DNA of 64,000 nt from Trypanosoma brucei (GCA_000002445.1 CP000067.1:1184001-1248000), one strand, 5' to 3'; positions 1 through 54,900 are shown, counted from the stretch's first letter. Translations and numbers: made by a program. The notes: generated by a model from the sequence alone, not told the origin.

Positions 1-2466
1 CGAGGGTGTGACGTGAGTCACCACAGGAGACACGGAAGGATTCAGAACACGTGACATCGACCATACAGAAATATGCGTCGCACCATAGTTCACAGCACAG
101 TGTTTCTCTTCAAATGAAGCTCCGTTAGTACACTTGTCATCAAAAGGACCATATCGCATATCATCAACTGTAATGACAGATTGGCTGAAGATGGCGTCTA
201 CAAGCTCCTCCGGCGTTACATGTCCCATACGTTGCAGGACATTTATCATTGCACGTGCGGTGACATATCCAAGTAATGACAATGGCTTCCACTTCGACTC
301 ATCTCGTACAACTCTGTGGAACTCACGTACCAAATCGGATTCCGTGTTCTTATCTCCCCAATGTGGCAGATTCGTTGCGAATAGCAGACGGTCAGCAAAT
401 GGCTTGTCACGGAAGGCACTCACAAGTTCATCATAGAGTAACGCAACATCAAAGAACGGGACAAAGATACGCACATTATGGTGTTTGCCAAGGTGAGAGA
501 GGATTATGGGGATATCATCTGAGATGAGACCTGCAACTAATACCTCACCTGCAGTCGGTAGCTTGTCTCTCAAAGTAGAACCTTCACCACTCGCAACAAA
601 GGAGCTTAATGACGCAAAAAAGTAGTCAAGTGTTTTGTTCAGCATCTCTCCAATATCTTTCGTATCACCACTACGCACAATGGCATGCATCTTTCCAGCA
701 CCATTTTGTATGATATGCTCAACTATCACGAATAGTTGTTGCTCAAGTGTTGGTGACAGGTGGATCACATTCCTTCTGGGGTTACTCAGTTGTGGTGTGA
801 GTGTTATGGGATCGATGAATGCCATACCCTTCGTCGACAGTAACGAATCATCCACAACACCAAACACAGCAGTTACAACTCGCTTCTCCACTTCATCATA
901 CAGAGCTGTAGAAGTATCATGAGATTTCGAGGATAGCCAGTGTAAAAAGAATCTATCAGAGTGACCAAGTTGACCCTTTCCAACAACATAAAAGGCACCA
1001 TCGTATATTGCCTCTGCAGTACGCAGTGCCTTTGGGTCATCAGTTAGTTTAAACATGATGCCACTCAATGGGGCGTACAGCTGTGACAGGTCTCTATAGC
1101 AGCGAGATGAAGTAAGAGCTAATACACCTTCCTTCATAGGGTACAGACGGAGATCCTTTCCCATCTTCTTCATGTACACCACATTCCCACCCTGATTACA
1201 TAAACATGATGCACCCCGCTCACCCGCCATACCACGGCACTCACCACCAAAGTCACCAACAACAATATCATCAATTACATAACGACGTTGATTGTAAAGT
1301 GATGTAATAAATGCATCCCTGCTAGTCAGCCATTCGCGACAACTCAGTGCTTGTTTCAATACCTCTCCAGCAATCCATCCGTCAACCATCAGCTCAGCTT
1401 CAGTGTCTTGCTCGGTGAAGTTGCTTTCGTCAACATTTAGGTTAACATTCCATTGTCCAGTGCCACTCAGAATATCTTTCTTTTCCTTCAGGTACTTTGC
1501 CATATCACCCTTGAATCGTTTGATTGCATCATAGCCATCATCCTTCGCAAGTGGATTAGTCCCAGTTATTATTATCTTATCAGGCACAAACCTGTCTCTA
1601 CCCAATTCCTTTTCCCACTTATTCTCAATGACATATTGGAGTGTAGAGGGTATGAGCAAATATCCACCTTTTGTCCTTTCATCTTCTAATGATTTCATTA
1701 GGAATTTCTTCGTATCATTGATTGGAGAGCCAAATACAATCACACCCTGAGGTCGAGTATTTGCAAACTTATCCCACTCCGCACTGAAGCTACTGTCATC
1801 CGATTCCTTACCAATTTGACTCTTCAATGCAAAAACACCGCACAGTTTGCGATCCATCCGTGTTGTCAATTCCACAGCAAGCTTATATTCATCATCACCA
1901 TAAGAAACATCTTTCAAGTACATGAAACCCAGCCGATGTAACCGTAACTGAGTGATAGCATAACGGAGAAGAGCAAGCATCTCAGCAGCGGGTGATGCTG
2001 TCAGGAAGTACAGATTAGGATTCCAACTGCGTACCTTACTGGATCCTGTGAAGGGTGAGAAACTAATCACATTCTTTTCTTTGAAATATTTCAAGAGACC
2101 TAGAGTGTTTTTATCACCCACAGGTCCCAGTATAACAGGGAGTTCCTCACCATTATTGTCGTTGCTAAAGGACGTTTCGCTATTTAAATGACCAACATAA
2201 TCTGAATCATTCTTCGGTGGAACATATACCACTTCCACATTAGCACCTGACGGCGGGTTCCCGTTGGTAATGGATGCGTTGAAGCCTGCAATAATAGGAT
2301 CATATATCTTTGCTGAAATCTTGTTACTGTATAACATGTTGTATACCTTCACCTGTATTTTATCATTTGCAAGTGATGATGCAGTCAGCACCTGTAGTAA
2401 CAGAGAAAACACTAGGTAAGTGACTGCGCCATCTCTAACATACAATTCACGCATGAAGGTAACCAT
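1..2466 (-). CDS. GRESAG4: receptor-type adenylate cyclase, array copy 0 (partial; N-terminal ~820 codons, 3 prime end lies beyond window start)
   Basis: Near-identical at nucleotide level to the N-terminal 2.4 kb of the three full copies (e.g. 1-80 matches 4863-4940; 1021-1080 identical to 5884-5943). ATG on minus strand at 2464-2466 gives MVTFM... as in copies 1 and 2. Variant blocks checked by hand remain in frame (2153-2221 differs from other copies by a multiple of 3, no stop). Not in ORF track because no stop codon before the window edge. Confidence 0.72.
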   Translation of the reverse strand, partial: MVTFMRELYVRDGAVTYLVFSLLLQVLTASSLANDKIQVKVYNMLYSNKISAKIYDPIIAGFNASITNGNPPSGANVEVVYVPPKNDSDYVGHLNSETSFSNDNNGEELPVILGPVGDKNTLGLLKYFKEKNVISFSPFTGSSKVRSWNPNLYFLTASPAAEMLALLRYAITQLRLHRLGFMYLKDVSYGDDEYKLAVELTTRMDRKLCGVFALKSQIGKESDDSSFSAEWDKFANTRPQGVIVFGSPINDTKKFLMKSLEDERTKGGYLLIPSTLQYVIENKWEKELGRDRFVPDKIIITGTNPLAKDDGYDAIKRFKGDMAKYLKEKKDILSGTGQWNVNLNVDESNFTEQDTEAELMVDGWIAGEVLKQALSCREWLTSRDAFITSLYNQRRYVIDDIVVGDFGGECRGMAGERGASCLCNQGGNVVYMKKMGKDLRLYPMKEGVLALTSSRCYRDLSQLYAPLSGIMFKLTDDPKALRTAEAIYDGAFYVVGKGQLGHSDRFFLHWLSSKSHDTSTALYDEVEKRVVTAVFGVVDDSLLSTKGMAFIDPITLTPQLSNPRRNVIHLSPTLEQQLFVIVEHIIQNGAGKMHAIVRSGDTKDIGEMLNKTLDYFFASLSSFVASGEGSTLRDKLPTAGEVLVAGLISDDIPIILSHLGKHHNVRIFVPFFDVALLYDELVSAFRDKPFADRLLFATNLPHWGDKNTESDLVREFHRVVRDESKWKPLSLLGYVTARAMINVLQRMGHVTPEELVDAIFSQSVITVDDMRYGPFDDKCTNGASFEEKHCAVNYGATHISVWSMSRVLNPSVSPVVTHVTPS

Positions 2467-2500
2467 GATACTGGTAACTCAACGTAATCCAACGTGAAAA

Positions 2501-2528
2501 CTACAAGACAAAAAGGGAATAATAACAA
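2501..2528 (-). promoter_or_regulatory. Candidate polypyrimidine tract plus AG trans-splice (spliced-leader) acceptor upstream of copy 0
   Basis: Minus-strand reading ttgttattattccctttttgtcttgtag, ~35-45 nt upstream of the ATG. Inferred from the kinetoplastid rule that SL addition occurs at the first AG downstream of a polyY tract. Confidence 0.35.
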
Positions 2529-3585
2529 AGTATTGGTACAGGATTAAGAGACTGCATATGTACAGATATGTTGGATTGTGACACAATAAGAGTCCATATG
2601 ATAATTGTATATAAGAGTGTAGGAAAGGGAACTATTATGATGGATAGCGTTATATAAACCATAACAGTGAGAAAGTAATTCAACATACATTCCCCTATAC
2701 ACACATCATTCATGTATCCGATACAAAAACAGAAAACATCACTAGGCACAAGAGTAAATGTGTAAATAGAGCATTATAATATCATAGACTGGATGCCAGT
2801 AATAAAAACAAAGCACACTAGCAGTCACAGTTAACATTCAACTGACAACAGCATGGCAGACATTGTTCAGTTTCATATTCCTTGGTTGTCTAAAGGTAAA
2901 ATAGAAAGAATGGGTCTGAGGGAATATGAGGAAAGTTACAATAAGCATATGAAAACATGCAGGAAGCTATGCACAGGTATTAGATGTTGTAAATAGTTGT
3001 CGGCAGCAGTTTCATTTGAGAAGTACCTCTCACAAGCCAAAATCTCCAAAGGAGAAATGTAAAAAGGGATTGAAGCAAACACGGAAAATAAACACCAGAT
3101 GATAGTTTTACTTCATGGCAACCCCCACTTCACGGGTTTCACCTTCTTATCGTACACATCTTTAGGTGTATGAACACAACTGATAACAACACATTAGAGG
3201 TAGAGAACCTCACTTGACCACAGCACACACAAACGGCAATTTAAGCTTATTGAACTAATAAATATATTATTTAAAAGAGTGAGATAATCAAAAGTGGTGT
3301 AGGTGCTCACATCCAATTCCACACCAAAAACAAGAAGATTTGCGATCTTCAAACACAGTTCTCAAAAGGAGATTACCCATGTCAGAAATAAGGAGCGCAT
3401 TAGTGCATGGAGGTGGTTAAAATCCACAACATATCACTTTATTACATGCACAACAAAAGGAAAGGTACAATGGATAGCCACTTTATACAAAATAAATCTA
3501 AAGAAAAGATTGCACACATGATGTAAAACAACTTATTCATTCACTTCAATAGCAAAGCGCACATATAGCAATGTTACGGGGAATA

Positions 3586-6500
3586 TTAGCTGGCAGCGCT
3601 AACATTTTCCAAGTCAATCAATTGTACGCCGCTACAATCACCTTCACCGCAGAAGGAACTTGAGGATGAAGCAAGCATTATAGCAGCTGCTCCTCCAGGT
3701 GAGAAGAGACTTCCGCCCCTTTCAAAAGATCCACCGCTACCAGAGGTATTTCTCGTTCCAAAATCCATAACACAACCCACCTTCGCAGCAATCCGACGAG
3801 TGACACAGCGGCAACTGGCTTCATTCCAAGCATCCATACCTGGGGGTTTCTTAACACGCCAACGCTCACAAAAAGTTGCAAGCATCTTCTGTCGCTGGGT
3901 AGCAGGGAATGTGCCAAGCAGAGCATCAATACAACCAGCAACTTGTTGGGCAGTGGCAGTTAAACCATGTGCGAAAGATCCCGACCCACTGGTGATACTA
4001 CCAGTTACATTATCTTCTTCCTCCTCAGCTTCACGGTCAAGGCGCAGAGCAGCAAAGGTACGGCCAGGTACAGCATTCAACTGGTACATTTCCACAGGCT
4101 TCGGCACACCACGTAGCGGCACATCACCCAAAGGCGTTACATTAAGTTGCTCACGCTCTTCACCACTCAGTGACAGGTATGTTGAGCGCGTCATCAGCAC
4201 CTGACCACCGTTACCAACACTCTCCGTGCGTGCTGCCATGTTGGATGTGCGTCCATAATAGTCGTAACCTTTCGTTACTTCATCATGACGAATATCACAC
4301 AATCCAGTATGAATCCCCACACGTACACGCAACCCATTCCACAGTTGCCGATAAACCTCAGGGTCCAGGCTCGCAGTTGGTGGTGTGTAATCACTGTCAT
4401 CTTCCGCACGCTTTCGTTCGAATTCACGGTAAGACTCATCAAGCTCAGTGGTCTTCCAGTCATGGTTTAGAAAATCACGTTGCAAGTCACATGCGAGTTG
4501 TGCAGCAGCGAAGGGACTTTTACACGCAATCATAAAAGAGTCTCCAACAGTTTTCACTTCGTAGCACTCATACCGTGTGATGAGGGAGCGGATCAAACGG
4601 TGATGTGTTGCCACAAGGTCAGGCATTTGCTCAGGGTGTGCTGCCCACTGCGCTGTACTGCTCTCGATATCAGTGAATATTAATGTTACGGGGTCTGTTG
4701 GTTCCTTGGGAGCATTATTATTGTCACGGGCGTTCCGGCGTGATGATCTTATGACAAGTACCAGAACCGTAACAAACAGTGCCAATACAACAGCGCAGCT
4801 GACTGCAATAGCAGCAATGTGTCCTCTCTTAAGTCGAAACCCTTCTGTGTCACCGTATTTCATCGAGGGTGTGACGTGAGTCACCACAGGAGACACGAAA
4901 GGATTCAGGACACGTGACATCGACCATACAGAAATATGCGTCGCACCATAGTTCACAGCACAGTGTTTCTCTTCAAATGAAGCTCCGTTAGTACACTTGT
5001 CATCAAAAGGACCATATCGCATATCATCAACTGTAATGACAGATTGGCTGAAGATGGCGTCTACAAGCTCCTCCGGCGTTACATGTCCCATACGTTGCAG
5101 GACATTTATCATTGCACGTGCGGTGACATATCCAAGTAATGACAATGGCTTCCACTTCGACTCATCTCGTACAACTCTGTGGAACTCACGTACCAAATCG
5201 GATTCCGTGTTCTTATCTCCCCAATGTGGCAGATTCGTTGCGAATAGCAGACGGTCAGCAAATGGCTTGTCACGGAAGGCACTCACAAGTTCATCATAGA
5301 GTAACGCAACATCAAAGAACGGGACAAAGATACGCACATTATGGTGTTTGCCAAGGTGAGAGAGGATTATGGGGATATCATCTGAGATGAGACCTGCAAC
5401 CAACACCTCACCTGCAGTCGGTAGCTTGTCTCTCAAAGTAGAACCTTCACCACTCGCAACAAAGGAGCTTAATGACGCGTTAAAGATATCAAGTGTTTTT
5501 TGCAACACTTTCCTAACTCCTCTCGTATCACCACTACGCACAATGGCATGCATCTTTCCTGCACCATTTTGTATGATATGCTCAACTATCACGAATAGTT
5601 GTTGCTCAAGTGTTGGTGACAGGTGGATCACATTCCTTCTGGGGTTACTCAGTTGTGGTGTGAGTGTTATAGGATCGATGAATGCCATACCCTTCGTCGA
5701 CAGTAACGAATCATCCACAACACCAAACACAGCAGTTACAACTCGCTTCTCCACTTCATCATACAGAGCTGTAGAAGTATCATGAGATTTCGAGGATAGC
5801 CAGTGTAAAAAGAATCTATCAGAGTGACCAAGTTGACCCTTTCCAACAACATAAAAGGCACCATCGTATATTGCCTCTGCAGTACGCAGTGCCTTTGGGT
5901 CATCAGTTAGTTTAAACATGATGCCACTCAATGGGGCGTACAGCTGTGACAGATCTCTATAGCAGCGAGATGAAGTAAGAGCTAATACACCTTCCTTCAT
6001 AGGGTACAGACGATGATCCTCTTCCATCTTCTTCATGTACACCACATTCCCACCCTGATTACATAAACATGATGCACCCCGCTCACCCGCCATACCACGG
6101 CACTCACCACCAAAGTCACCAACAACAATATCATCAATTACATAACGACGTTGATTGTAAAGTGATGTAATAAATGCATCCCTGCTAGTTAGCCATTCGC
6201 GACAACTCAGTGCTTGTTTCAATACCTCTCCAGCAATCCATCCACTCACCATCAGCTCACCTTCAGTGTCTTGCTCGGTGAAGTTGCTTTCGTCAACATT
6301 TAAGTTAACATTCCAATTATCTTTCGAAAAATTATTTCTGTTAAGTTTCAGGTACTTTGCCATATCATCCTTGGATCGTTTGATTGCATCATAGCCATCA
6401 TCCTTCGCAAGTGGATTAGTCCCAGTTATTATTATCTTATCAGGCACAAACCTGTCTCTACCCAATTCCTTTGCCCACTTATTCTCAATGACATATTGGA

Positions 6501-7317
6501 GTGTAGAGGGTATGAGCAAATATCCACCTTTTGTCCTTTCATCTTCTAATGATTTAATTAGGAATTTCTTCGTATCAGGGATTGGAGAGCCAAATACAAT
6601 CACACCCTGAGGTCGAGCATTTGCAAACTTATCCCACTCCGCACTGAAGCTACTGTCATCCGATTCCTTACCAATTTGACTCTTCAATGCAAAAACACCG
6701 CACAGTTTGCGATCCATCCGTGTTGTCAATTCCACAGCAAGCTTATATTCATCATCACCATAAGAAACATCTTTCAAGTACATGAAACCCAGCCGATGTA
6801 ACCGTAACTGAGTGATAGCATAACGGAGAAGAGCAAGCATCTCAGCAGCGGGTGATGCTGTCAGGAAGTACAGATTAGGATTCCAACTGCGTACCTTACT
6901 GGATCCTGTGAAGGGTGAGAAACTAGTCACATTCTTTTCTTTGAAATATTTCAAGAGACCTAGAGTGTTTTTATCACCCACAGGTCCCAGTATAACAGGG
7001 AGTTCCTTACCATCATGGGTTGTCATGTGTTTCCCGAGATAGTCAGCATATTTAGAATCATCCATGGTTGGAACATATACCACTTCCACATTAGCACCTG
7101 ACGGCGGGTTTCCGTTGGTAATGGATGCGTTGAAGCCTGCAATAATAGGATCATATATCTTTGCTGAAATCTTGTTACTGTATAACATGTTGTATACCTT
7201 CACCTGTATTTTATCATTTGCAAGTGATGATGCAGTCAGCACCTGTAGTAACAGAGAAAACACTAGGTAAGTGACTGCGCCATCTCTAACATACAATTCA
7301 CGCATGAAGGTAACCAT
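3586..7317 (-). CDS. GRESAG4: receptor-type adenylate cyclase, array copy 1 (1243 aa). Signal peptide, periplasmic-binding-protein-like extracellular domain, single TM (IAAIAVSCAVVLALFVTVLVLVI), class III cyclase catalytic domain; alternative C-terminal tail
   Basis: ORF track 3586..7317. Catalytic-domain motif VTLIFTDIESSTAQWAAHPEQMPDLVATHHRLIRSLITRYECYEVKTVGDSFMIACKSP is the trypanosomatid receptor adenylate cyclase signature I recognise (ESAG4/GRESAG4). A TM segment precedes the catalytic domain; the N-terminal two thirds are the extracellular domain typical of the family. Confidence 0.9.
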   Translation of the reverse strand: MVTFMRELYVRDGAVTYLVFSLLLQVLTASSLANDKIQVKVYNMLYSNKISAKIYDPIIAGFNASITNGNPPSGANVEVVYVPTMDDSKYADYLGKHMTTHDGKELPVILGPVGDKNTLGLLKYFKEKNVTSFSPFTGSSKVRSWNPNLYFLTASPAAEMLALLRYAITQLRLHRLGFMYLKDVSYGDDEYKLAVELTTRMDRKLCGVFALKSQIGKESDDSSFSAEWDKFANARPQGVIVFGSPIPDTKKFLIKSLEDERTKGGYLLIPSTLQYVIENKWAKELGRDRFVPDKIIITGTNPLAKDDGYDAIKRSKDDMAKYLKLNRNNFSKDNWNVNLNVDESNFTEQDTEGELMVSGWIAGEVLKQALSCREWLTSRDAFITSLYNQRRYVIDDIVVGDFGGECRGMAGERGASCLCNQGGNVVYMKKMEEDHRLYPMKEGVLALTSSRCYRDLSQLYAPLSGIMFKLTDDPKALRTAEAIYDGAFYVVGKGQLGHSDRFFLHWLSSKSHDTSTALYDEVEKRVVTAVFGVVDDSLLSTKGMAFIDPITLTPQLSNPRRNVIHLSPTLEQQLFVIVEHIIQNGAGKMHAIVRSGDTRGVRKVLQKTLDIFNASLSSFVASGEGSTLRDKLPTAGEVLVAGLISDDIPIILSHLGKHHNVRIFVPFFDVALLYDELVSAFRDKPFADRLLFATNLPHWGDKNTESDLVREFHRVVRDESKWKPLSLLGYVTARAMINVLQRMGHVTPEELVDAIFSQSVITVDDMRYGPFDDKCTNGASFEEKHCAVNYGATHISVWSMSRVLNPFVSPVVTHVTPSMKYGDTEGFRLKRGHIAAIAVSCAVVLALFVTVLVLVIRSSRRNARDNNNAPKEPTDPVTLIFTDIESSTAQWAAHPEQMPDLVATHHRLIRSLITRYECYEVKTVGDSFMIACKSPFAAAQLACDLQRDFLNHDWKTTELDESYREFERKRAEDDSDYTPPTASLDPEVYRQLWNGLRVRVGIHTGLCDIRHDEVTKGYDYYGRTSNMAARTESVGNGGQVLMTRSTYLSLSGEEREQLNVTPLGDVPLRGVPKPVEMYQLNAVPGRTFAALRLDREAEEEEDNVTGSITSGSGSFAHGLTATAQQVAGCIDALLGTFPATQRQKMLATFCERWRVKKPPGMDAWNEASCRCVTRRIAAKVGCVMDFGTRNTSGSGGSFERGGSLFSPGGAAAIMLASSSSSFCGEGDCSGVQLIDLENVSAAS

Positions 7318-7351
7318 GATACTGGTAACTCAACGTAATCCAACGTGAAAA

Positions 7352-7379
7352 CTACAAGACAAAAAGGGAATAATAACAA
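7352..7379 (-). promoter_or_regulatory. Candidate polypyrimidine tract plus AG trans-splice acceptor upstream of copy 1
   Basis: Same conserved spacer element as 2501-2528 (minus strand ttgttattattccctttttgtcttgtag). Confidence 0.35.
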
Positions 7380-7875
7380 AGTATTGGTACAGGATTAAGA
7401 GACTGCATATGTACAGATATGTTGGATTGTGACACAATAAGAGTCCATATGATAATTGTATATAAGAGTGTAGGAAAGGGAACTATTATAATGGATAGCG
7501 TTATATAAACCATAACAGTGAGAAAGTAATTCAACACACATTTCCCTATACACACATCATTCATGTATCCGATACAAAAACATAAAACATCACTAGGCAC
7601 AAGAGTAAATGTGTAAATAGAGCATTATAATATCATAGACTGGATGCCAGTAACAAAAACAAAGCACACTAGCAGTCACAGTTAACATTCAACTGGCAAC
7701 AGCATGGGAGACATTGTTCAGTTTCATATTCCTTGGTTGTCTAAAGGTAAAAGAGAAAGAATGGGTGTGAGGGAATATGAGGAAAGTTACAATAAGCATA
7801 TGGAAACATGCAGGAAGCGATGCACAGGTATTAGATGTTGCTAGTATTTGTCTCCAACAATATGATGTCGATATT

Positions 7876-10800
7876 TCAACTATTTTTTCCATTGTCCCCG
7901 AGAGATGTGCCAAATAATGGTTCACGTGAATCAAATTTCTCCAAGGTGCCGTTAAACATATTAATATCTATTGTACTACAAGAGTATATCGAAAAGTCGA
8001 ATTTGTCAGTCGGTGACATACATAGGTATTCTTTTACTTCCATCGGTGTGTGAAAGCGAACGGAAGGTAGTGGATGCTGCCGTCCTAACTGGCTAACATC
8101 GCAAATGCTATGAGATAAAGCAAATGAACTTCTTTCCGTTGATAAAGCTGTACCTGTGCTATTACGTATAACGACATTCATAATTGGTCCAGCTCTTACT
8201 GCAATGTGATGCACAGCGAGCCGGAATGTTGCCTTATCCCACCTATTCTTCACACTTTTAGGTGGAGGGACACGCCAGCGTTCACAAATAGATGTGAGCA
8301 TCCTCTGTCGCTGGGTAGCAGGGAGTGTGCCAAGTACAGTCTCAAGGGACTGTGCAACATGCAACGAGGAACCACATAACTCATGTGTAGAAGAGCAGAT
8401 ATCGCTTACATCAGTAAATATTCCTTCACTTTCTTCATTTTCCTCATCCTCAACGTCACGGTCAAGGCGCAGAGCAGCAAAGGTACGGCCAGGTACAGCA
8501 TTCAACTGGTACATTTCCACAGGCTTCGGCACACCACGTAGCGGCACATCACCCAAAGGCGTTACATTAATTTGCTCACGCTCTTTACCACTCAGTGACA
8601 GGTATGTTGAGCGCGTCATCAGCACCTGACCACCGTTACCAACACTCTCCGTGCGTGCTGCCATGTTGGATGTGCGTCCATAATAGTCGTAACCTTTCGT
8701 TACTTCATCATGACGAATATCACACAATCCAGTATGAATCCCCACACGTACACGCAACCCATTCCACAGTTGCCGATAAACCTCAGGGTCCAGGCTCGCA
8801 GTTGGTGGTGTGTAATCACTGTCATCTTCCGCACGCTTTCGTTCGAATTCACGGTAAGACTCATCAAGCTCAGTGGTCTTCCAGTCATGGTTTAGAAAAT
8901 CACGTTGCAAGTCACATGCGAGTTGTGCAGCAGCGAAGGGACTTTTACACGCAATCATAAAAGAGTCTCCAACAGTTTTCACTTCGTAGCACTCATACCG
9001 TGTGATGAGGGAGCGGATCAAACGGTGATGTGTTGCCACAAGGTCAGGCATTTGCTCAGGGTGTGCTGCCCACTGCGCTGTACTGCTCTCGATATCAGTG
9101 AATATTAATGTTACGGGGTCTGTTGGTTCCTTGGGAGCATTATTATTGTCACGGGCGTTCCGGCGTGATGATCTTATGACAAGTAACAGAACCGTAACAA
9201 ACAGTGCCAATACAACAACGCAGCTGACTGCAATAGCAGCAATGTGTCCTCTCTTAAGTCGAAACCATTTAGCGTAACCATCCATCATCAATGGTGTGAC
9301 GTGAGTCACCACAGGAGACACGGAAGGATTCAGAACACGTGACATCGACCATACAGAAATATGCGTCGCACCATAGTTCACAGCACAGTGTTTCTCTTCA
9401 AATGAAGCTCCGTTAGTACACTTGTCATCAAAAGGACCATATCGCATATCATCAACTGTAATGACAGATTGGCTGAAGATGGCGTCTACAAGGTCCTCCG
9501 GCGTTACATGTCCCATACGTTGCAGGACATTTATCATTGCACGTGCGGTGACATATCCAAGTAATGACAATGGCTTCCACTTCGACTCATTCTGTACAAC
9601 TCTGTGGAACTCACGTACCAAATCGGATTCCGTGTTCTTATCTCCCCAATGTGGCAGATTCGTTGCGAATAGCAGACGGTCAGCAAATGGCTTGTCACGG
9701 AAGGCACTCACAAGTTCATCATAGAGTAACGCAACATCAAAGAACGGGACAAAGATACGCACATTATGGTGTTTGCCAAGGTGAGAGAGGATTATGGGGA
9801 TATCATCTGAGATGAGACCTGCAACTAATACCTCACCTGCAGTCGGTAGCTTGTCTCTCAAAGTAGAACCTTCACCACTCGCAACAAAGGAGCTTAATGA
9901 CGATTCAAAGAAGTCAAGTGTTTTGTTCAGCATCTCTCCAATATCTTTCGTATCACCACTACGCACAATGGCATGCATCTTTCCAGCACCATTTTGTATG
10001 ATATGCTCAACTATCACGAATAGTTGTTGCTCAAGTGTTGGTGACAGGTGGATCACATTCCTTCTGGGGTTACTCAGTTGTGGTGTGAGTGTTATGGGAT
10101 CGATGAATGCCATACCCTTCGTCGACAGTAACGAATCATCCACAACACCAAACACAGCAGTTACAACTCGCTTCTCCACTTCATCATACAGAGCTGTAGA
10201 AGTATCATGAGATTTCGAGGATAGCCAGTGTAAAAAGAATCTATCAGAGTGACCAAGTTGACCCTTTCCAACAACATAAAAGGCACCATCGTATATTGCC
10301 TCTGCAGTACGCAGTGCCTTTGGGTCATCAGTTAGTTTAAACATGATGCCACTCAATGGGGCGTACAGCTGTGACAGGTCTCTATAGCAGCGAGATGAAG
10401 TAAGAGCTAATACACCTTCCTTCATAGGGTACAGACGATGATCCTCTTCCATCTTCTTCATGTACACCACATTCCCACCCTGATTACATAAACATGATGC
10501 ACCCCGCTCACCCGCCATACCACGGCACTCACCACCAAAGTCACCAACAACAATATCATCAATTACATAACGACGTTGATTGTAAAGTGATGTAATAAAT
10601 GCATCCCTGCTAGTTAGCCATTCGCGACAACTCAGTGCCTGTTTCAATACCTCTCCAGCAATCCATCCACTCACCATCAGCTCACCTTCAGTGTCTTGCT
10701 CGGTGAAGTTGTTTTCGTTAGCATTTAGGGTAACATTCCAATTATCTTTCGAAAAATTATTTCCGTTTACCTTTAGGAAGTTAGCTAGTTCACCCCTAAA

Positions 10801-19923: not shown

Positions 19924-22767
19924 TCATCCCTCATGTTGCCGAAGGGCCTCACTGAGTGCATTCTCCAACTTGAGCAAAAGCGCGGTGCGAACTCTACGGA
20001 TTTCAAGCCGCCGCCGTCTCCCCTCCGCACTGCGTTCCTTTTGCTCACGCAGCTGCATGCGGAGTCGCTCAATTTCCCCTTCACATATTGCCTCACGCTG
20101 TCGTTGTCGCTGTAGGTCTCGAATAAACTCAGTGCCGAGGTTATTCCCATCCATGCAACTGCGGTGGCAATGGGAACCTTCCAGTGCGAGCTTCAGTTGG
20201 TACTCCGTGATTTCCAGCTTTTGCCAGACGCTGCGCAGTTCCGCCTGTAGTTGGCGCACAAGCTGCTGAGCCTCGTTCTTGGCGTGCATTTCATTGTTAA
20301 GCCGCTCTTCCGCCTCGCTAACCGCGCATTGTTGCACCTCCAAACTTTGTTGCATGTCGTCTAAGCGTCGCTGCAGGAATACCATTTCCCCCAAACTGCT
20401 GGCGTTATGGCCGAGGTTAGACGCAGCTAAATTGCAAGGGCGAACGGTTGAATCATAAGGAGTTTCTGGTGACTCATTTCCGCTGCCGCTCGCCGATGTA
20501 CAACGAGTGCCATCGTCAGAAGTAGCTCCCATCATGACGGACTCCAGATGTTGAATGCGCGTGTGAGCGGCGCGCAGCTGCTGTTCCAATGCCATTATTG
20601 TCATAATTTCCCCTGAGGCAATCGCTGTAGAGGCATCCTCATCGGTGTTGGCTATGTTGTGATTTAATCTCCTTGCAATGCTCCTTCGTGGCGAGGGGGG
20701 GCCGTCGTAAGCCTCGTACCTTTTCAAGCGTTGTTGAAGTTCATCCCGCTCTTTCCTCAGCTTGTTAACCTCATCCTGCGTTGCTGCTAGTTCATCCCGC
20801 ATCAGCACGAGCTCTACCTCCCCCGGTTGGTTGCTGCATATGTCGCTTAGTTGCTCCTCCAGTTGGTGGACGCGCAGAAGTAGTTTTTCCCTGTCCCGGA
20901 ATACACGAGTAGTCCCCAAGAGACTTACGCCACCGATGGAATTCACAACCTCTGTTGAGCAGCCAAGGCCGTCGCGTGCGGTACTTCCTTCGAGATGGGA
21001 ACCTGGGCCAACCCGTGGGCTGTGACATAACGAGGAGGTCTTAAGCCGCTCAAAACGCTCACGCAGCGACCGTGGTCCCTGCTCAACTTGGTTAAACGAT
21101 GACATGCAAGCCTTAAAGCTGAGTGTTGGTCTCGCAGGATCCGCTTTTAATGACCCTAACCCCCCAGCCGCTAAGGCCGCTTTTGCTCCGAAACGAGGAG
21201 CAGTCGGGCAGCTGTTCTGTAGCCGTCTATTCCGACTCACTTCCTTTCCCGAAGTGCGTGCGGCTCCGAATCGCCCGGCAGCCGCACCCCCTACTTTTTC
21301 CGCCAACTCCCCAGTTTCTCTAATACCACCCGCAACGCTGCCTCTTGGACTGTACAAACTTCCTGGGTTTAAACTTGTGCGATAGTGCCCTTTCGCCCCA
21401 GCCGCTGCTACGTCGGCAACGAGTGCATCAATCGCCCTTATTTCCTCCTGCGCGAGCTGAACATACTCCTCGTTCTCCTCCAGCTCGCGCAGCAGTGCCA
21501 CTCTGTCGGTAACTGGTGTAATATCTGCAGCTCTTGACGCGTCTCTAAGTGTTTTCAACCTGCCAGCAGCCCGGCTTGCGTCAAGCATTGCCTTCACCCA
21601 CTGATGAAGTGGTCCCAAAGTCGGGTGCACACGTGACACACGGAGGTGAGTCCACTGTCGCAAGAATTGTTCAAGCTCCTCTAAGGGCGAGCACCCATTT
21701 ATCTGCGAATCACGCCCCGTCAATTCTGCAATGTTCAGGTATGCGGTCAGTGGCTCGCACCTTATGAGTTGCTGAGGGAGACTCGGCCATCCCCCACTTC
21801 CAAAACTTAGCCTCATGCGTCTAATTCGAGGGAACCCTAGTAATATCAACATAGCGTCCATAACAGCGGCCACCGCCGGTGGTGGTTGCCGAAATCTACG
21901 GATATCCGCCCACAGTGATTGGGGAACAGCAGAAAGGGCGGCATTTGCCAGAGTCAGCTGCAACCTGAACTCTATATACTCCTCCTCAGCAGCATGCAAG
22001 AACAGCAGCGCTTCCTCTTTTCCACTGGTGGTGTCATAATCTTCGGCAAATGTTGGTCTCGCTGTCATTTCATCGTTGTCAACACTTCCGGTAGCACCAT
22101 CACCAACCGCAGCGGCGGAAACAGCAGTAGCGGAGAGAGAATTACTACCCTCACCTGTGGTATTCCTTTGACCAGAGCGGAAGGATTGCGTGAGCAGTTG
22201 CAGTTCCGTAATGCGAGAGAGGGATGTATCAACTCCGTAGCGCAGTTGCTCTCGCCGGCGGCGTAGCTCCTCCACGTCTTTCAGGGTGAGATTCTCCTCT
22301 CTCTTCTTTACAGCGACCCCCGGTTCTCCCTTTGGGTCATTTGCAATATCAGCGGTACTTGCACTAACGATGCTGTTATCGCTATTGTTGTTTCCGGCGT
22401 TGTCGTCCTTGACATTACCACATGTGCTATTCCTCTCTGGAGTCCAGTGATTTTGACCCCGACACGCCTGCTGTCGCTGCGAACGAGCTCTTGGACTCGG
22501 TGTTCTGCAGGAGCGTGGCATTACATCCCTTGTCAACCTGCGTCGTGTTCCCATACAACTATTAGGGCTCCTAGTTCTGATTCCTACGCAACTGAAGGCT
22601 CTGCGGGCAGAGATGGGGCTACTTTTTGTATCTGGAGTTCTGCTACCACGAGTCCCAACACCACTGCGGCGACACGTATCAGGTCCATCCAGAATGTGAA
22701 ACCCTCTTCGTCCGCTCCGACACCGCAAGCTCATTCCGTCACGCTGCTGAGCGCACCGCGTGCTCAT
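19924..22767 (-). CDS. Hypothetical protein, 947 aa, with extended coiled-coil segments (e.g. EVNKLRKERDELQQRLKRYEAY; LQRQRQREAICEGEIERLRMQLREQKERSAEGRRRRLEIRRVRT)
   Basis: ORF track 19924..22767. A 947-codon ORF with heptad-like charged repeats, same strand as its neighbours. No domain recognised with confidence. Confidence 0.6.
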   Translation of the reverse strand: MSTRCAQQRDGMSLRCRSGRRGFHILDGPDTCRRSGVGTRGSRTPDTKSSPISARRAFSCVGIRTRSPNSCMGTRRRLTRDVMPRSCRTPSPRARSQRQQACRGQNHWTPERNSTCGNVKDDNAGNNNSDNSIVSASTADIANDPKGEPGVAVKKREENLTLKDVEELRRRREQLRYGVDTSLSRITELQLLTQSFRSGQRNTTGEGSNSLSATAVSAAAVGDGATGSVDNDEMTARPTFAEDYDTTSGKEEALLFLHAAEEEYIEFRLQLTLANAALSAVPQSLWADIRRFRQPPPAVAAVMDAMLILLGFPRIRRMRLSFGSGGWPSLPQQLIRCEPLTAYLNIAELTGRDSQINGCSPLEELEQFLRQWTHLRVSRVHPTLGPLHQWVKAMLDASRAAGRLKTLRDASRAADITPVTDRVALLRELEENEEYVQLAQEEIRAIDALVADVAAAGAKGHYRTSLNPGSLYSPRGSVAGGIRETGELAEKVGGAAAGRFGAARTSGKEVSRNRRLQNSCPTAPRFGAKAALAAGGLGSLKADPARPTLSFKACMSSFNQVEQGPRSLRERFERLKTSSLCHSPRVGPGSHLEGSTARDGLGCSTEVVNSIGGVSLLGTTRVFRDREKLLLRVHQLEEQLSDICSNQPGEVELVLMRDELAATQDEVNKLRKERDELQQRLKRYEAYDGPPSPRRSIARRLNHNIANTDEDASTAIASGEIMTIMALEQQLRAAHTRIQHLESVMMGATSDDGTRCTSASGSGNESPETPYDSTVRPCNLAASNLGHNASSLGEMVFLQRRLDDMQQSLEVQQCAVSEAEERLNNEMHAKNEAQQLVRQLQAELRSVWQKLEITEYQLKLALEGSHCHRSCMDGNNLGTEFIRDLQRQRQREAICEGEIERLRMQLREQKERSAEGRRRRLEIRRVRTALLLKLENALSEALRQHEG

Positions 22768-39146: not shown

Positions 39147-42100
39147 TCACCGTTGCTCAATTAGAAACAGACTGCAGTTGTCCATTCCGACACCTTCTTC
39201 GTTGTCTACTGGAGCCACGCACTGCGCGAAAATACCGGCGGCAGAGGTAAGAAGTAGCGCGTCAATTGAGGCCCCAGATGCTCCACCGTGACAGCACTTG
39301 CCGCCCCATACGTTATCAACAGTTTTGGATCCACCATTCTCACGTTCGCCATCTGCACCACAACGATATTTTTCTGTGTTAATATGACTTTTATCGCCCT
39401 CTTTTTGTGATGCATACGCCATCTCCCGCGCCCGGATAACTACCTCGGTGGCAGAGCTCGCCACTTCCAAGTCATTTGGCGTATTCATAATGGCATGATG
39501 GACCTGATGGGGAGTTAAAGTGTCCCACACCCCGTCACACGCCACAACGACGCCCCATCGACCCACTGCGGCAGCAGGTGGCACCGGCATAATCGTCACG
39601 TCAGGCACTGCAGTTACGGCTTGCTCCCGCGGACCACGGCCACCACACTGCTTAAAGTCGTAATCGCCCAATGCACGAGACACAGCCAATAGTCCCTCGA
39701 TGCGGTGCTCCACCAATGTGTATCCCGCAGCGTTAATACGAGCCCTTTCTCCTGGATCCGTTGTGCGGTGCGTGATGCTGATGGGTACTATATCTTGTGG
39801 TGTATAGAAGGCTGCACCGCTGTCCCCAATATTCGCGCATAGAATGAAGTTTGTTGTGATTCCCACGACGCAGGCTGTGCAGCCAGTGCAATTGTAGTCG
39901 CCACGGCGGCCTTCGTCGCTGCTCCGCAGCTCATCGTCGAGTGACAGAAGCGCCTCCTCCATTATGCCAGCAAAGTACAACCTGAGGGCCTCCATTTCAC
40001 GTCGGGAGACAGTTGGTGAGGCTGACAAACCATGACATGTGTCTGAAGTCTCCGAGTGGTCAGCGGCGCTTCCCCGAGCGACGGACTTGTCAGCGCTACC
40101 TTCCGTAAGTTGCCGCACCATTTCAACAGTTACGTTGGAGACTGAGCGGACACCAACGTCTCCCAATGCAGCGCCACTGTTAACATCATTGCTGCTGAGC
40201 TGAGGAAAACACCCGCTTTCCCGAGGCCGCAAGGGTGAGGCCTCGCTTACAGAGTACTGAGGTGTGGTCGACTCCTGATCCACGCGGCGGAGAACTGCAC
40301 TCGCCTCCGCCTCGTCGTGCCGCACTGAACATACTGCTTTGCGGAGGTGTGACTCAAACCGGCTTGCCGCCAGCTTTGCCACCGCATCACCACCATGTCC
40401 ATCAAAGACACAAAAAACTGCCATGGCCACAGCATCATTAGACTCGCGGGCCGCAATCGTTTCCTCCGCTTTATCGTCGTCGGCCCCTGTATCGGGTGTG
40501 TCAGAGAGGCAAGGTATGCTAATAACGAAGGCCGCCTCGGCATCCTCTTGTGTTGCACGCCAGCCTTGTACCTTCGCACCTAGTGAAATCAGCTTTGGTG
40601 CTGTCACACCCACGTGTAGAGTGTCTTCCATTGCGGAACAGCGAGGTAATGGTGATGCACTACCCACCAGCCTCGGGGAGCCCAAGCCGCATTCGATGGT
40701 GCCACTGATTGCCGCGCTACCACCTTCCGTGGGCGTTACGTCTTGACCCGCGTTTGGAGGATAAAAAAGTGCAATATCAGTCTGTAAGGCGTTACGGTTG
40801 ACAAGCGGACGATCCCGCAGTACAGAAGAATGGGCACTAGTACGGCCGCAGAATGAGGGCTGTGCCTCACCGTAGCACTTTATTTGTACCTCGTAACCTA
40901 CACAAGCAATATCACGCACAGGATCCTCAAGGTAGGTACCGCGTGTGGCTGCAAGTTGATCAACCAACGGGTCGTACACCTCTGTGTAGCGCCAGGTGAA
41001 GCTCTGGCACGGCTCGCACCAGTAAACACGGTCAAAACTTGTCATGATGTCGAGTATGTTGATAAACAGAGAGCATGCACCTACCGCATTGCGTCCTGTC
41101 TCCTCGTCATCCATGGTTTCACACACACTCGACGCCCCCCTCTTACTTTTACCCACTGCAGGAATGGAATCATTGTAGTGGCGTGTGACGTGGGAGGGGC
41201 ACAAAGCTGTGAGGCAGTGAAGGCAGAGAAAAGAAGCGGGCCTACGGTCACAGCATTTGCAATGGTGATACAGTTTGTGTGCGTGGTAGCGGCTGTAGTC
41301 CACACCACGAGCATCCTTTGTGATCAGCTGTTGAGTGCAAGTACACCGCGAGACGGATCCATCCTCCTCGTAGAATGCATTCCGATCCCGTGTGGAGTCC
41401 TTCTCCGTCCCATGGGATGGCAAAACTAATGTTGCATCCAACGTTCCCGACTCTTGGTTGCCGCCGTATCGCCAAAGCAACCCCTCAGTCTCTTCTCCTT
41501 CTTCCTCTTCTTGCCTCTTCTCAATTCCTTTCTGTTGTGCCTGCTGGGGACGTTCTTGTACAGCTGAATCTCTACTGACACCGATGTTGCTCCTTTCAAA
41601 ACTACACCGCGCTCCTTTGCCGCCTTCTGCCCTTCCATTAGGAGTCCCTGCTTTCAGAGGCTTATTCATGTACTTTTTCACTTCATCCTCCGCGGAGATA
41701 AGCATGACTCCCTTTTCTGCATTAAACAACAGCCGTGCAGCCACTTTGCAATCACTTTTGTCTTGGTCTTCCGTGGGAAAGAGGGGATACGATGTGGATA
41801 CCACGCCAAACGTGAAGCAGTCATCTTCCTCCGAAGCAATTATTGTTCCCACGTTGCTAACACTTTTCGTGTCTTCATTTGTGCTTGAGGACTGGCTTAG
41901 GCCCACACCTCCCTCCCTGGTGTGTCGCCTATCAGCCCTACCCGACCGACCACATGGGGAAGGATCGGCAGCTTTGGTTTCATCAGCACCACCTTCATCA
42001 CACTTCCTACACGAAGCAATAGTGTCCGGTGGAGCAGAGAGCACGCTCAGATTGAGACCGGAGCACACCGCACGCACAGTACTAAGTATCACCTCCGCTC

Positions 42101-54397: not shown

Positions 54398-54433
<36 letters not shown>

Positions 54434-54900
54434 TTATTTATTTATTTATTTCCCCCCTTCCCCTTCAGTTATTAATCATTTTTGTTCCTTTTGAGCATTT
54501 TACTTTCCTTTCTTCACCCCACTCCACCCCAACATTCACACACTCATATATATATATATATATATATGTACACGTACCCGCTTTAAAAACCAAACGAGGT
54601 TTGCGCCGGCATAATACCACGGGTAGATTACAAAGGAATCTGTTCTTTTTTGTTTTTGTTTATTTGCTTGTTTTTTATTTTCCTTTTTGTCATGAAGGCG
54701 TGTGTATGTGTGCACATACGCGGAAGAGTAGGTGAAGAAAGGAAAGGAGGGGATAAGGGTATAACGAAAAATGAAAAAAAAATGTGGGAGGAGATAACAC
54801 CACGTAGGTTGCGAGGGGTTTCGAAACTGTTCCTTTCGTCAGCCAGTAACAACGTGAACAGCGAAGATAATCGTGACCTAGCAAAGTAGGGAAAAGTATT
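43900..54900. repeat. ~11 kb AT-rich low-complexity gene desert. Alternating homopurine and homopyrimidine blocks; dense mono-, di-, tri- and tetranucleotide microsatellites of several motifs.
   Basis: No ORF longer than ~170 aa on either strand, and those present encode only F/L/K/N-rich low-complexity peptides. Composition visibly shifts to A+T. Simple repeats throughout. Confidence 0.85.
54402..54451. repeat. (AT)14 followed by (TTTA)6 compound microsatellite
   Basis: Read directly from the sequence. Confidence 0.9.

What the first reader, a model, noticed from the sequence alone, without database searches (positions are those of the whole stretch)
3000..4030. Copy 1 carries an alternative C-terminal tail plus 3 prime UTR module, replacing the tail and UTR used by copies 2 and 3
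Downstream of the conserved catalytic domain, copy 1 ends with a 147-aa tail ...AEEEEDNVTGSITSGSGSFAHGL...CGEGDCSGVQLIDLENVSAAS. Copies 2 and 3 instead end with a ~190-aa tail ...EGIFTDVSDICSSTHELCGSS...FGTSLGDNGKNS.

Homology resumes exactly at ~4030 (copy 1) and ~8455 (copy 2). The 3 prime UTR of copy 1 (3010-3585) is also unique, whereas 2467-3010 again matches the standard spacer.

This is a clean ~1 kb module swap. In T. brucei, the C-terminal tails of receptor cyclases are known to direct them to different flagellar membrane subdomains (tip versus whole flagellum), and 3 prime UTRs set stage-specific expression. This copy may therefore differ from its neighbours in both localisation and regulation.
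Basis: partly seen in the sequence, partly recalled or inferred. Interest (0 to 1): 0.62.

Follow-up and report, generated by a model that had tools for sequence, protein, structure and literature searches.

The report
Two tail cassettes in cyclase array
In a tandem array of near-identical Trypanosoma brucei receptor adenylate cyclase genes, the last ~150-190 codons and the start of the 3' UTR exist in two anciently diverged versions; this is real, but it is an ordinary product of recombination in a known gene family, and copy 1 carries the common ESAG4-like version, not the odd one.

Summary
Copy 1 (3586-7317, minus strand) is 96-100% identical to copies 2 and 3 down to base 4030/8455. It then diverges completely until ~3015/7866, where identity returns. 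Synonymous divergence is 0.00-0.05 in the gene body and saturated (>1.4) in the tail, so this is an exchanged cassette, not point mutation.

The window is T. brucei TREU927 chromosome 4. Copy 1 is not the exception. Copy 0 and two further genes left of the window carry the same tail (A), as do a chromosome 7 paralogue and five of seven genes in the T. b. gambiense array. Tail B (copies 2 and 3) is the cloned GRESAG4.4 tail and occurs only at this locus.

The distal part of tail A and its whole 3' UTR align at ~75-90% with an expression-site ESAG4 locus. The "UTR swap" is really 570 extra bases in A. Both types share the last ~270-290 bases of the UTR.

Hybrid genes and offset junctions between strains show ongoing unequal crossover and gene conversion. 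Differences in localisation or regulation are plausible from work on related cyclases but untested here. This is a new instance of a known kind, of modest interest.

The parts
1..2466 (-). Copy 0 (partial): first 822 codons of the next cyclase gene downstream in the array. It runs off the window edge, and its full-length protein carries tail A.
   Evidence: The translation matches AAZ11034 (P0002) at 822/822 residues. The P0002 tail is 92% identical to copy 1's.
2467..2722 (-). Array-specific part of the spacer: the region upstream of copy 0's start codon, inferred to hold the splice-acceptor and 5' UTR. It is identical after A and B units.
   Evidence: 100% identity between copy 1 and copy 2 units. 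Polypyrimidine tracts lie at 2631-2621 and 2519-2510. Homology to other downstream contexts (ESAG4-ESAG8; last gene of the gambiense array) stops at ~2723/2699.
2723..2989 (-). Distal 3' UTR segment shared by A units, B units and the ESAG4 locus.
   Evidence: 96-98% identical between A and B units, with fixed differences. The copy 2 equivalent (7836-7574) is 89% identical to L002 8338-8602 downstream of gambiense ESAG4.
2990..3015 (-). Fuzzy 3' junction of the cassette.
   Evidence: 16/26 matches to 7841-7866 by direct reading. The junction sequence is identical in all A units and in all B units of both genomes.
3016..3585 (-). A-specific 3' UTR segment (570 nt). It is absent from B units and homologous to the ESAG4 3' UTR.
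   Evidence: No match elsewhere in the window. It follows every tail A gene in gambiense, where those intergenic regions are 1114-1117 nt against 558 nt after B. It aligns colinearly with L002 7808-8330 at mostly 73-85% per 60 nt, with one 54-nt indel.
3586..3750 (-). Tail A distal segment (residues 1190-1243 plus stop). It is predicted disordered and is of the ESAG4 type.
   Evidence: pLDDT ~30. The last 43 residues are 72-75% identical to bona fide expression-site ESAG4, against 11-19% between ESAG4 and the ACP1/2-like P0148/P0149 over that segment. Nucleotide identity to the ESAG4 locus is 75-92%.
3751..3957 (-). Tail A proximal three-helix subdomain (residues 1121-1189).
   Evidence: AlphaFold2 predicts helices with pLDDT 71-87. 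The tail's first ~104 residues, which contain it, are 39% identical to tail B and 75% identical to the chromosome 6 genes P0137/P0139.
3958..4029 (-). Tail A acidic/Ser-rich linker (residues 1097-1120). The 5' junction of the cassette is at 4030.
   Evidence: pLDDT <50. First mismatch to copy 2 is at 4030/8455.
4030..7317 (-). Copy 1 body: signal/extracellular binding-protein-like domain, transmembrane helix and class III cyclase catalytic domain. It is homogenised with copies 2 and 3.
   Evidence: AAZ11035/XP_844594. Pfam PF25495, PF25493, PF13458 and PF00211. dS to copy 2 is 0.053 overall and 0.000 in the last 230 codons.
7318..7866 (-). Whole intergenic region after copy 2, minus the 9 private bases. 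It equals copy 1's 2467-3015.
   Evidence: 96.6% identity, ungapped.
7867..8454 (-). B cassette of copy 2: 9 nt of private UTR, stop codon at 7876-7878, and tail B (193 aa). Tail B comprises a linker, a three-helix subdomain (8158-8373) and a 93-aa distal segment (7879-8157).
   Evidence: The tail is 88% identical to GRESAG4.4 AAF69135. The last ~60-70 codons have no homologue in any frame among the retrieved cyclases. None was found below E=1e-10 in 1.84 billion representative proteins.
8455..11742 (-). Copy 2 body.
   Evidence: AAZ11036.
11743..12291 (-). Intergenic region after copy 3. It is identical in type to 7318-7866.
12292..12863 (-). B cassette of copy 3. Its 5' junction lies ~15 nt further 3' than in copy 2, because it keeps the A-like codons EAEEE.
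   Evidence: The same offset is conserved in gambiense gene 2 and in AAF69135.
12864..16116 (-). Copy 3 body, the first gene of the TREU927 array. It has a distinct N-terminus (MLKLLLL...) and is a hybrid of gambiense gene 1 (5' part) and gene 2 (3' part).
   Evidence: Informative-site run: gene 1 type up to the last informative site before CDS position 3081, then gene 2 type from 3081 (window 13036) onward. AAZ11037.

Best explanation
The window holds the upstream end of the chromosome 4 GRESAG4 receptor adenylate cyclase array of T. brucei TREU927, transcribed right to left. The order is copy 3, copy 2, copy 1, copy 0, then two more genes beyond the window.

All units share a body (~3.3 kb: extracellular domain, transmembrane helix, catalytic domain) and a ~550-nt spacer. 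Unequal crossover and gene conversion keep these 95-100% identical. Between them sits a 3' cassette that exists in two anciently diverged forms:
- Cassette A (copy 1, copy 0 and the two genes to their left) is a 147-aa tail plus 570 nt of extra 3' UTR. From about residue 1170 onward, including the whole UTR, it is colinear with the 3' end of expression-site ESAG4. This is the family-typical arrangement.
- Cassette B (copies 2 and 3, the GRESAG4.4 type) is a 193-aa tail whose stop codon lies 9 nt before the shared UTR. Its last ~60-70 residues have no detectable relative.

Recombination starts and ends in the identical flanks, so whole cassettes are reassorted between array positions. Shown: TREU927 copy 3 has the body of gambiense gene 1 but a B tail, while gambiense gene 1 has an A tail.

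Inferred: the heterology of the cassette itself blocks homogenisation, perhaps helped by selection.

Inferred consequence, not shown: one receptor/catalytic module is made with two different disordered cytoplasmic ends and two 3' UTR lengths (~875 vs ~315 nt). These could give different sub-flagellar placement, partners or mRNA regulation.
For: Identity and location.

Sharp boundaries.

Ancient cassette, young flanks: body dS 0.053, catalytic dS 0.000, tail dS 1.4-2.1, with dN/dS 0.3-0.46.

A is the majority and widespread type.

Discordant histories:
- In the extracellular-domain tree, chr4 A + chr4 B + chr7 group at 100% bootstrap, with chr8 as sister at 88%.
- In the tail tree, tail A groups with the chromosome 6 genes P0137/P0139 at 82-87%, although their extracellular domains are only 38% identical to copy 1's and of GRESAG4.1 type.

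ESAG4 colinearity: window 4300-2723 aligns to L002 7090-8602 at 72.8% over 1600 nt, and at 75-92% from ~3800 onward. L002 is a genuine expression-site-like context, with a RING+LRR ESAG8-type gene downstream and a position 1-13 kb from the chromosome end.

Ongoing shuffling:
- TREU927 copy 3 is a hybrid of gambiense genes 1 and 2.
- The two B genes have 5' junctions offset by ~15 nt, each conserved across subspecies.
- T. b. equiperdum P0016 shows a further combination.

Both tails are intact in every genome seen and are predicted to share a linker, a three-helix subdomain and a disordered end.

Literature:
- Gene conversion in T. brucei tandem arrays, including cyclase arrays and events spanning stop codons and UTRs (PMC1855330).
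- A variable C-terminal region in these cyclases, and C-terminal signals for flagellar subdomains (PMC6027212, PMC10470820).
Against: - The polarity of the original event is not resolved. Tail B groups only weakly (27-44% bootstrap) with the chromosome 8 gene P0128, and no close donor exists at nucleotide level. B could be the older resident tail and A an ESAG4-type import that predates the chr4/chr7 duplication.
- Near-identity of the bodies could partly reflect recent whole-unit duplication rather than continuing conversion.
- The trees are neighbour-joining on short alignments.
- ESAG4 UTR homology rests on one gambiense locus.
- UTR ends were inferred from where homology stops, not from mapped poly(A) sites.
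- No expression or localisation data separate A from B.
- ESAG4 lacking its last 107-112 residues still reached the flagellum and bound CARP3. This weakens the expectation that tail A's distal part directs localisation.
- AlphaFold confidence in tail B's distal part rests on two sequences only.
Confidence: 0.78

Rival explanations
1. Copy 1 alone acquired a foreign tail plus UTR from another cyclase subfamily, replacing the array's standard tail.
For: Within the window, two of the three complete copies carry tail B and only copy 1 carries tail A. Tail A does have close relatives on other chromosomes.
Against: Copy 0 and two more genes to the left carry tail A, so 4 of 6 TREU927 genes and 5 of 7 gambiense genes are A. 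The chromosome 7 paralogue, whose extracellular domain is 81% identical, already has tail A. Tail B occurs only at this locus.
Confidence: 0.03
2. Tail B is the ancestral tail of the chr4/chr8 lineage. Cassette A, an ESAG4-type 3' end, was imported by ectopic recombination before the chr4/chr7 duplication and has since spread through the array. This gives the same two-cassette structure with the opposite polarity.
For: Tail A is more similar to tails of genes with distant extracellular domains (chr6 75%, ESAG4 distal 72%) than to those of its nearest body relatives on chr8 (39-44% proximal, 22% distal). Tail B's best match is the chr8 gene P0128 (45%).
Against: The chr8 sister P0127 has an A-like proximal tail and groups beside the tail A clade. 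The chr6 tails nest inside the chr4/chr7 tail A group, which suggests chr4-type genes were donors rather than recipients. Support for B + P0128 is weak (27-44%). B's distal 60-70 residues are unique.
Confidence: 0.15
3. The tails diverged in place by rapid point mutation under relaxed or positive selection, with no exchange of sequence.
For: The first ~175 nt of the tails are still colinear (38-84% identity) and the proteins align for ~125 residues.
Against: Synonymous sites are saturated (dS >1.4) next to a region with dS = 0. dN/dS is 0.3-0.46, not above 1. 838 nt against 403 nt are unalignable. Tail A has 70-90% relatives at other loci, including the UTR.
Confidence: 0.02
4. Assembly collapse or mis-join in a repetitive array created a chimeric copy.
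For: Tandem arrays of ~4.4-4.9 kb units at 95-100% identity are error-prone. The gambiense assembly has a 100-N gap in one unit.
Against: Identical junction sequences appear in TREU927 and in gambiense DAL972. Equiperdum proteins of both tail types and the independently cloned GRESAG4.4 AAF69135 confirm the B junction in independent material. Both ORFs are intact.
Confidence: 0.02

Closest known systems
ACP1/ACP2 (Tb927.11.17040 / Tb927.10.16190), T. brucei flagellar cyclases differing mainly at the C-terminus
   Same: A pair of closely related receptor cyclases whose distal C-terminal ~45 residues matter for flagellar placement (Saada 2014, as cited in PMC10470820 and PMC6027212). The logic is the same: one body with alternative tails.
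   Different: Those genes lie on different chromosomes, not in one array. Their tails are unrelated to A or B in the distal part (P0148/P0149 are 14-23% identical to tail A). Localisation of the chromosome 4 genes has not been compared.
ESAG4 of VSG expression sites
   Same: The last ~70 residues of tail A and its ~860-nt 3' UTR are colinear with an ESAG4 locus at ~75-92% nucleotide identity.
   Different: The extracellular domain is only 42% identical and the proximal tail 36%. The chromosome 4 genes sit in a core polycistron, not a telomeric expression site.
GRESAG4.4 (AAF69135; Naula et al. 2001)
   Same: Copies 2 and 3 fall in its 90% identity cluster, and their tails are 85-88% identical to it. 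It shares copy 3's junction and catalytic patch.
   Different: Copy 1 shares the body but not the tail. Whether the 2001 paper described the two tail types in one array could not be checked, because the paper is not held.
Tandem arrays in T. brucei evolving in concert with divergent ends (Jackson 2007, PMC1855330; the PGK and hexose transporter arrays are named there)
   Same: Near-identical duplicates, gene conversion tracts that span stop codons and UTRs, and atypical duplicates with a distinctive C-terminus plus a remodelled intergenic region. Cyclase arrays were included in that survey.
   Different: That study reported ectopic (between-locus) conversion as very rare. Here the tail and UTR show clear between-chromosome affinities (chr4, chr6, chr7, ESAG4).

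Membership tests
Trypanosomatid receptor-type adenylate cyclase (ESAG4/GRESAG4, Fam51) | Extracellular periplasmic-binding-protein-like domains | tested here: met
   PF25495, PF25493 and PF13458 are precomputed for P0001 and P0013.
Trypanosomatid receptor-type adenylate cyclase (ESAG4/GRESAG4, Fam51) | Single transmembrane helix followed by a class III cyclase catalytic domain | tested here: met
   Hydrophobic stretch HIAAIAVSCAVVLALFVTVLVLVI read. PF00211. Confident catalytic fold, pLDDT 85-94.
Trypanosomatid receptor-type adenylate cyclase (ESAG4/GRESAG4, Fam51) | Variable C-terminal region after the catalytic domain | tested here: met
   Tails of 147 and 193 aa. The CERWRV-containing helical part is conserved across 48 family members. 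Described in PMC6027212.
GRESAG4.4 subfamily | C-terminal tail of the AAF69135 type | tested here: not met
   For copy 1, the subject of the finding, tail identity to the B type is 37-40% over ~110 aa only. For copies 2 and 3 the feature is met at 85-100%.
ESAG4 sensu stricto | Location in a telomeric VSG expression site | tested here: not met
   The window is a chromosome 4 core region, flanked by a 947-aa gene and, in gambiense, an ABC transporter. No ESAG neighbours.
ESAG4 sensu stricto | ESAG4-clade extracellular domain | tested here: not met
   42% identity. The extracellular-domain tree puts the chromosome 4 genes with chr7 and chr8 genes, and ESAG4 with P0148/P0149.
ESAG4 sensu stricto | ESAG4-type distal tail and 3' UTR | tested here: met
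   72-75% amino-acid identity in the last 43 residues. 75-92% nucleotide identity through the UTR to window 2723.
Cyclases with a C-terminal flagellar-subdomain targeting signal (ACP1 type) | Distal ~45 aa required for flagellar tip or whole-flagellum placement | not testable with these tools
   This needs tagging and deletion experiments. The sequence is not similar to the ACP1/2-like tails. Truncating the ESAG4 tail did not change flagellar targeting (PMC6027212).
Concertedly evolving tandem array (Jackson 2007) | Duplicates more alike within a genome than position predicts, with detectable conversion or crossover breakpoints | tested here: met
   Catalytic dS is 0.000 between adjacent A and B genes. 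Hybrid copy 3. Offset junctions and strain-specific mosaics.

The most novel reading that the evidence does not exclude
The 3' end of the cyclase gene (last ~70 codons plus ~860 nt of 3' UTR) behaves as a mobile cassette. It has been exchanged between expression-site ESAG4, the chromosome 4/7 arrays and chromosome 6 GRESAG4.1-type genes.

ESAG4 itself would then be a mosaic: an ACP1-like extracellular domain joined to a chr4-type distal tail and UTR. That would reinterpret the 'C-terminal remodelling' of ESAG4 noted by Jackson et al. 2013 as recombination.

The chromosome 4 array would keep cassettes A and B by selection, because they give the same receptor two different sub-flagellar addresses and/or stage-specific mRNA fates.
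Probability: 0.3. Interest if true: 0.5.

Novelty: new member of a known kind. Interest (0 to 1): 0.3.

Why it matters
These cyclases are flagellar surface receptors linked in the literature to suppression of host innate immunity, cytokinesis and social motility in the tsetse fly. Where each isoform sits in the flagellum is thought to matter.

The chromosome 4 array is a natural experiment. It offers almost identical receptor and catalytic modules with two very different cytoplasmic ends and UTR lengths, so tail and UTR effects could be tested with little confounding.

The unique segments (3016-3853 for A, 7867-8269 for B) are also the only places where reads, probes, RNAi fragments or peptides can tell these genes apart. 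That matters for interpreting expression and proteomic data on Tb927.4.44xx genes.

The ESAG4-like 3' end on core-chromosome genes is a caution for ESAG4-directed RNAi, antibodies and PCR. One 'ESAG4' GenBank entry from T. b. gambiense (AEX08457) clusters with these chromosome 4 genes.

Tried and rejected
- **Tail-only protein search:** it found nothing. A 383-aa query returned only hits of 221-671 aa, so the tool appears to return targets of similar length only. This is not evidence of uniqueness. It was replaced by a full-length search plus local BLAST.
- **Flanking TREU927 DNA:** look-ups by exact protein failed for P0001 and P0126. T. b. gambiense loci were used instead.
- **Donor of tail B:** the chromosome 8 gene P0128 is the best protein match (45%). 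Its locus gives no nucleotide similarity beyond the part conserved in all tails, so it was rejected as a recent donor.
- **Frameshift or read-through origin of tail B's distal part:** TBLASTN of the last 130 aa of every retrieved full-length cyclase against the B DNA found hits only in the true frame and only in the proximal part. BLASTN and TBLASTX against the A UTR and the whole window found nothing.
- **Wider search for tail B's last 79 aa:** an HMMER scan of 1.84 billion representative proteins gave only three weak hits, apparently to repetitive proteins (E 1e-6 to 5e-4). Caveat: the library's representative for this cluster may not carry tail B.
- **Pfam on both tails:** no family.
- **Rfam on the window:** nothing.
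- **Motif scan of the A-specific UTR:** a few generic AU-rich words only, not informative.
- **First bootstrap attempt:** it timed out and was redone with a faster distance routine.
- **Literature access:** Saada 2014 (PMC4135804) is not held. Naula 2001 and Salmon 2012 (Mol Microbiol) were not obtained. Their content is cited only through reviews.
- **Gene IDs:** the mapping Tb927.4.4410-4460 = AAZ11032-11037 is inferred from consecutive accessions and from mentions in PMC7719234 and PMC12816148. It was not verified.
Full report
**What is there.** Three complete ORFs lie head to tail on the minus strand, with a partial fourth: copy 1 at 3586-7317, copy 2 at 7876-11742, copy 3 at 12301-16116, and copy 0 at 1-2466. 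[quoted passage not shown] Copy 0 matches the first 822 residues of AAZ11034 exactly. The proteins have the family's architecture: binding-protein-like extracellular domains, one transmembrane helix and a class III cyclase domain.

**Checking the observation.** BLASTN and a MAFFT sliding window show copy 1 and copy 2 at 96-100% identity down to 4031/8456.
- The next ~175 nt are weakly colinear, with an 84% core at the ATQRQ..CERWRV motif.
- Then 838 nt of copy 1 (3853-3016) and 403 nt of copy 2 (8269-7867) do not align at all.
- Identity returns at ~3015/7866 and is clean from 2989/7840.

A Nei-Gojobori count quantifies the contrast. Body dS is 0.053. The last 230 codons of the body have dS 0.000. 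The tail has dS 1.4-2.1, which is saturated, with dN/dS 0.3-0.46. The cassette is therefore ancient and its flanks are young. This is neither in-place point mutation nor chance.

The same junction sequences occur in T. b. gambiense DAL972 (L001, L003). Both tail types also occur in T. b. equiperdum proteins, and tail B in the independently cloned AAF69135. An assembly artefact is excluded.

Copy 0 and the next two genes to the left (AAZ11034, 11033, 11032) all carry copy 1's tail at 91-92% identity. TREU927 therefore reads B-B-A-A-A-A in the direction of transcription.

The gambiense array reads A-B-B-A-A-A-A. A chromosome 7 paralogue pair (P0126/P0196) whose extracellular domain is 81% identical also has tail A (86%).

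Tail B was found in full only in five proteins of this locus, including GRESAG4.4 AAF69135. Its last ~60-70 residues match no other retrieved cyclase in any frame. They match nothing convincing in 1.84 billion representative proteins.

**Relationship to the rest of the family.** Region-by-region identities and bootstrapped neighbour-joining trees show discordant histories.
- By extracellular domain, chromosome 4 A and B genes plus chromosome 7 form a 100% clade, with chromosome 8 genes as sister (88%).
- By tail, A groups with the chromosome 6 genes P0137/P0139 at 82-87% bootstrap. Their extracellular domains are GRESAG4.1-like and only 38% identical to copy 1's.
- The last 43 residues of tail A are 72-75% identical to genuine expression-site ESAG4 (cluster of CAQ57xxx).

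At DNA level, window 4300-2723 aligns colinearly with a gambiense ESAG4 locus (L002) over 1600 nt. Identity is 75-92% from about 3800, through the stop codon and the entire A-specific UTR, into the first ~265 nt of the 'standard spacer'. L002 lies 1-13 kb from a chromosome end, and a RING+LRR gene of ESAG8 type follows ESAG4 there.

Three conclusions follow:
- Arrangement A is an ESAG4-type 3' end.
- The part of the spacer at 2989-2723 is really shared distal 3' UTR.
- B units lack only the proximal 570 nt of UTR, and their stop codon sits 9 nt before the shared part.

Homology to unrelated downstream contexts ends at ~2700-2723. I take this as the approximate end of the UTR. That gives ~875 nt for A and ~315 nt for B. 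This is inferred, not mapped.

**Evidence that the cassettes are being reshuffled.**
- TREU927 copy 3 has the distinctive first-gene N-terminus (MLKLLLL...) and a B tail. Gambiense gene 1 has the same N-terminus and an A tail.
- Informative sites show copy 3 is gene 1 type in its 5' part and gene 2 type from CDS position 3081 onward. This is the signature of an unequal crossover that removed one unit, or added one in gambiense.
- The two B genes have 5' junctions offset by ~15 nt. Each variant is conserved between subspecies.
- T. b. equiperdum P0016 combines the first-gene N-terminus, copy 3's catalytic patch and copy 2's junction.

This fits published work on T. brucei tandem arrays, which documents gene conversion in cyclase arrays, including events spanning stop codons and UTRs. 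It also describes atypical duplicates with a divergent C-terminus and a remodelled intergenic region (PMC1855330).

**Structure of the tails.** AlphaFold2 models of the cytoplasmic parts, built with 48-49 family sequences, give a confident catalytic domain and then the same three elements in both proteins: a disordered acidic/Ser-rich linker, a three-helix subdomain (pLDDT ~70-90) and a low-confidence distal segment. The distal segment is 55 aa in A and 93 aa in B. The 'swap' therefore keeps a conserved helical module at 39% identity and replaces the disordered end completely. Neither tail matches a Pfam family.

**Function.** Nothing here tests function.

- The variable C-terminal region is a recognised feature of these enzymes (PMC6027212).
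- Deleting the last 45-46 residues of ACP1 and ACP2 disrupts flagellar localisation (Saada 2014, as cited in PMC10470820).
- Distal-tail deletions mislocalise T. cruzi cyclases.

Literature against a strong expectation:
- ESAG4 lacking its last 107-112 residues still reaches the flagellum and binds CARP3. ESAG4 is the closest relative of tail A's distal part.

Expression data found:
- Tb927.4.4460, inferred to be copy 3, was reported as translationally bloodstream-biased and weakly expressed in procyclic forms (PMC7719234).
- No A-versus-B comparison was found.

**Verdict.** It is wrong on which copy is unusual and on the nature of the UTR difference.

The phenomenon is a further example of known behaviour: concerted evolution with recombination in trypanosome tandem arrays, and variable cyclase tails. 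The genes are annotated and the B tail was cloned in about 2000.

The modestly new points are the two-cassette organisation of this array, its reassortment between subspecies, and the ESAG4-type distal tail plus 3' UTR on core-chromosome genes. I did not find these described in the literature available to me, which was incomplete.

Noticed in passing
window 44000-54900: About 10.5 kb of AT-rich (GC 0.24-0.34), microsatellite-like low-complexity sequence. It has no ORF of 250 aa or more on either strand and no Rfam hit. It lies inside a run of minus-strand genes (39147-43775 and 54955-56469).
   Followed up: partly
L002 4001-8602 (T. b. gambiense chr 10 end) and proteins P0134, P0148, P0149: ESAG4 itself looks mosaic. 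Its extracellular domain is 85-86% identical to the ACP1/2-like genes, but its catalytic domain is only 71% identical to them, against 80-86% to chr4/6/7 genes. Its distal tail is 72-75% identical to chr4 tail A, against 11-19% to the ACP1/2-like genes. Jackson 2013 (PMC3605285) noted that the differences are concentrated C-terminally and read them as remodelling.
   Followed up: partly
proteins P0137, P0139 and their cluster members (TREU927 chromosome 6): Genes with a GRESAG4.1-type extracellular domain (38% identity to copy 1) carry a tail 75% identical to tail A. In the tail tree they nest inside the chr4/chr7 tail clade. This suggests tail transfer between chromosomes.
   Followed up: partly
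window 12301-16116 versus L001 10001-18380: TREU927 has one array unit fewer than T. b. gambiense DAL972. Copy 3 is a hybrid of gambiense genes 1 and 2. Gambiense gene 2 is split into two annotated fragments by a 100-N assembly gap.
   Followed up: yes
window 13010-13060 (copy 3): A short catalytic-domain patch (LAAYHALSTLEREQ instead of RSTYLSLSGEEREQ) is shared by copy 3, gambiense gene 2, AAF69135 and equiperdum P0016, but not by copy 1 or copy 2. It is a small conversion-tract marker inside otherwise identical sequence.
   Followed up: partly
proteins P0141 and P0201 (database entries, not the window): Two proteins annotated as Schistosoma mansoni 'receptor-type adenylate cyclase' are trypanosome-type cyclases. 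P0201 sits in the same 90% cluster as T. brucei chromosome 6 genes. This probably reflects trypanosome contamination of that assembly.
   Followed up: no
protein P0012 (AEX08457, T. b. gambiense 'expression site-associated protein 4'): This GenBank 'ESAG4' entry clusters at 90% or more with the chromosome 4 A-type genes, not with expression-site ESAG4. It is probably a GRESAG4 amplified with ESAG4 primers.
   Followed up: no
window 19924-22767 (minus strand): The 947-aa ORF immediately upstream of the array has no Pfam match. It is conserved in position in gambiense (L001 3350-6193).
   Followed up: no
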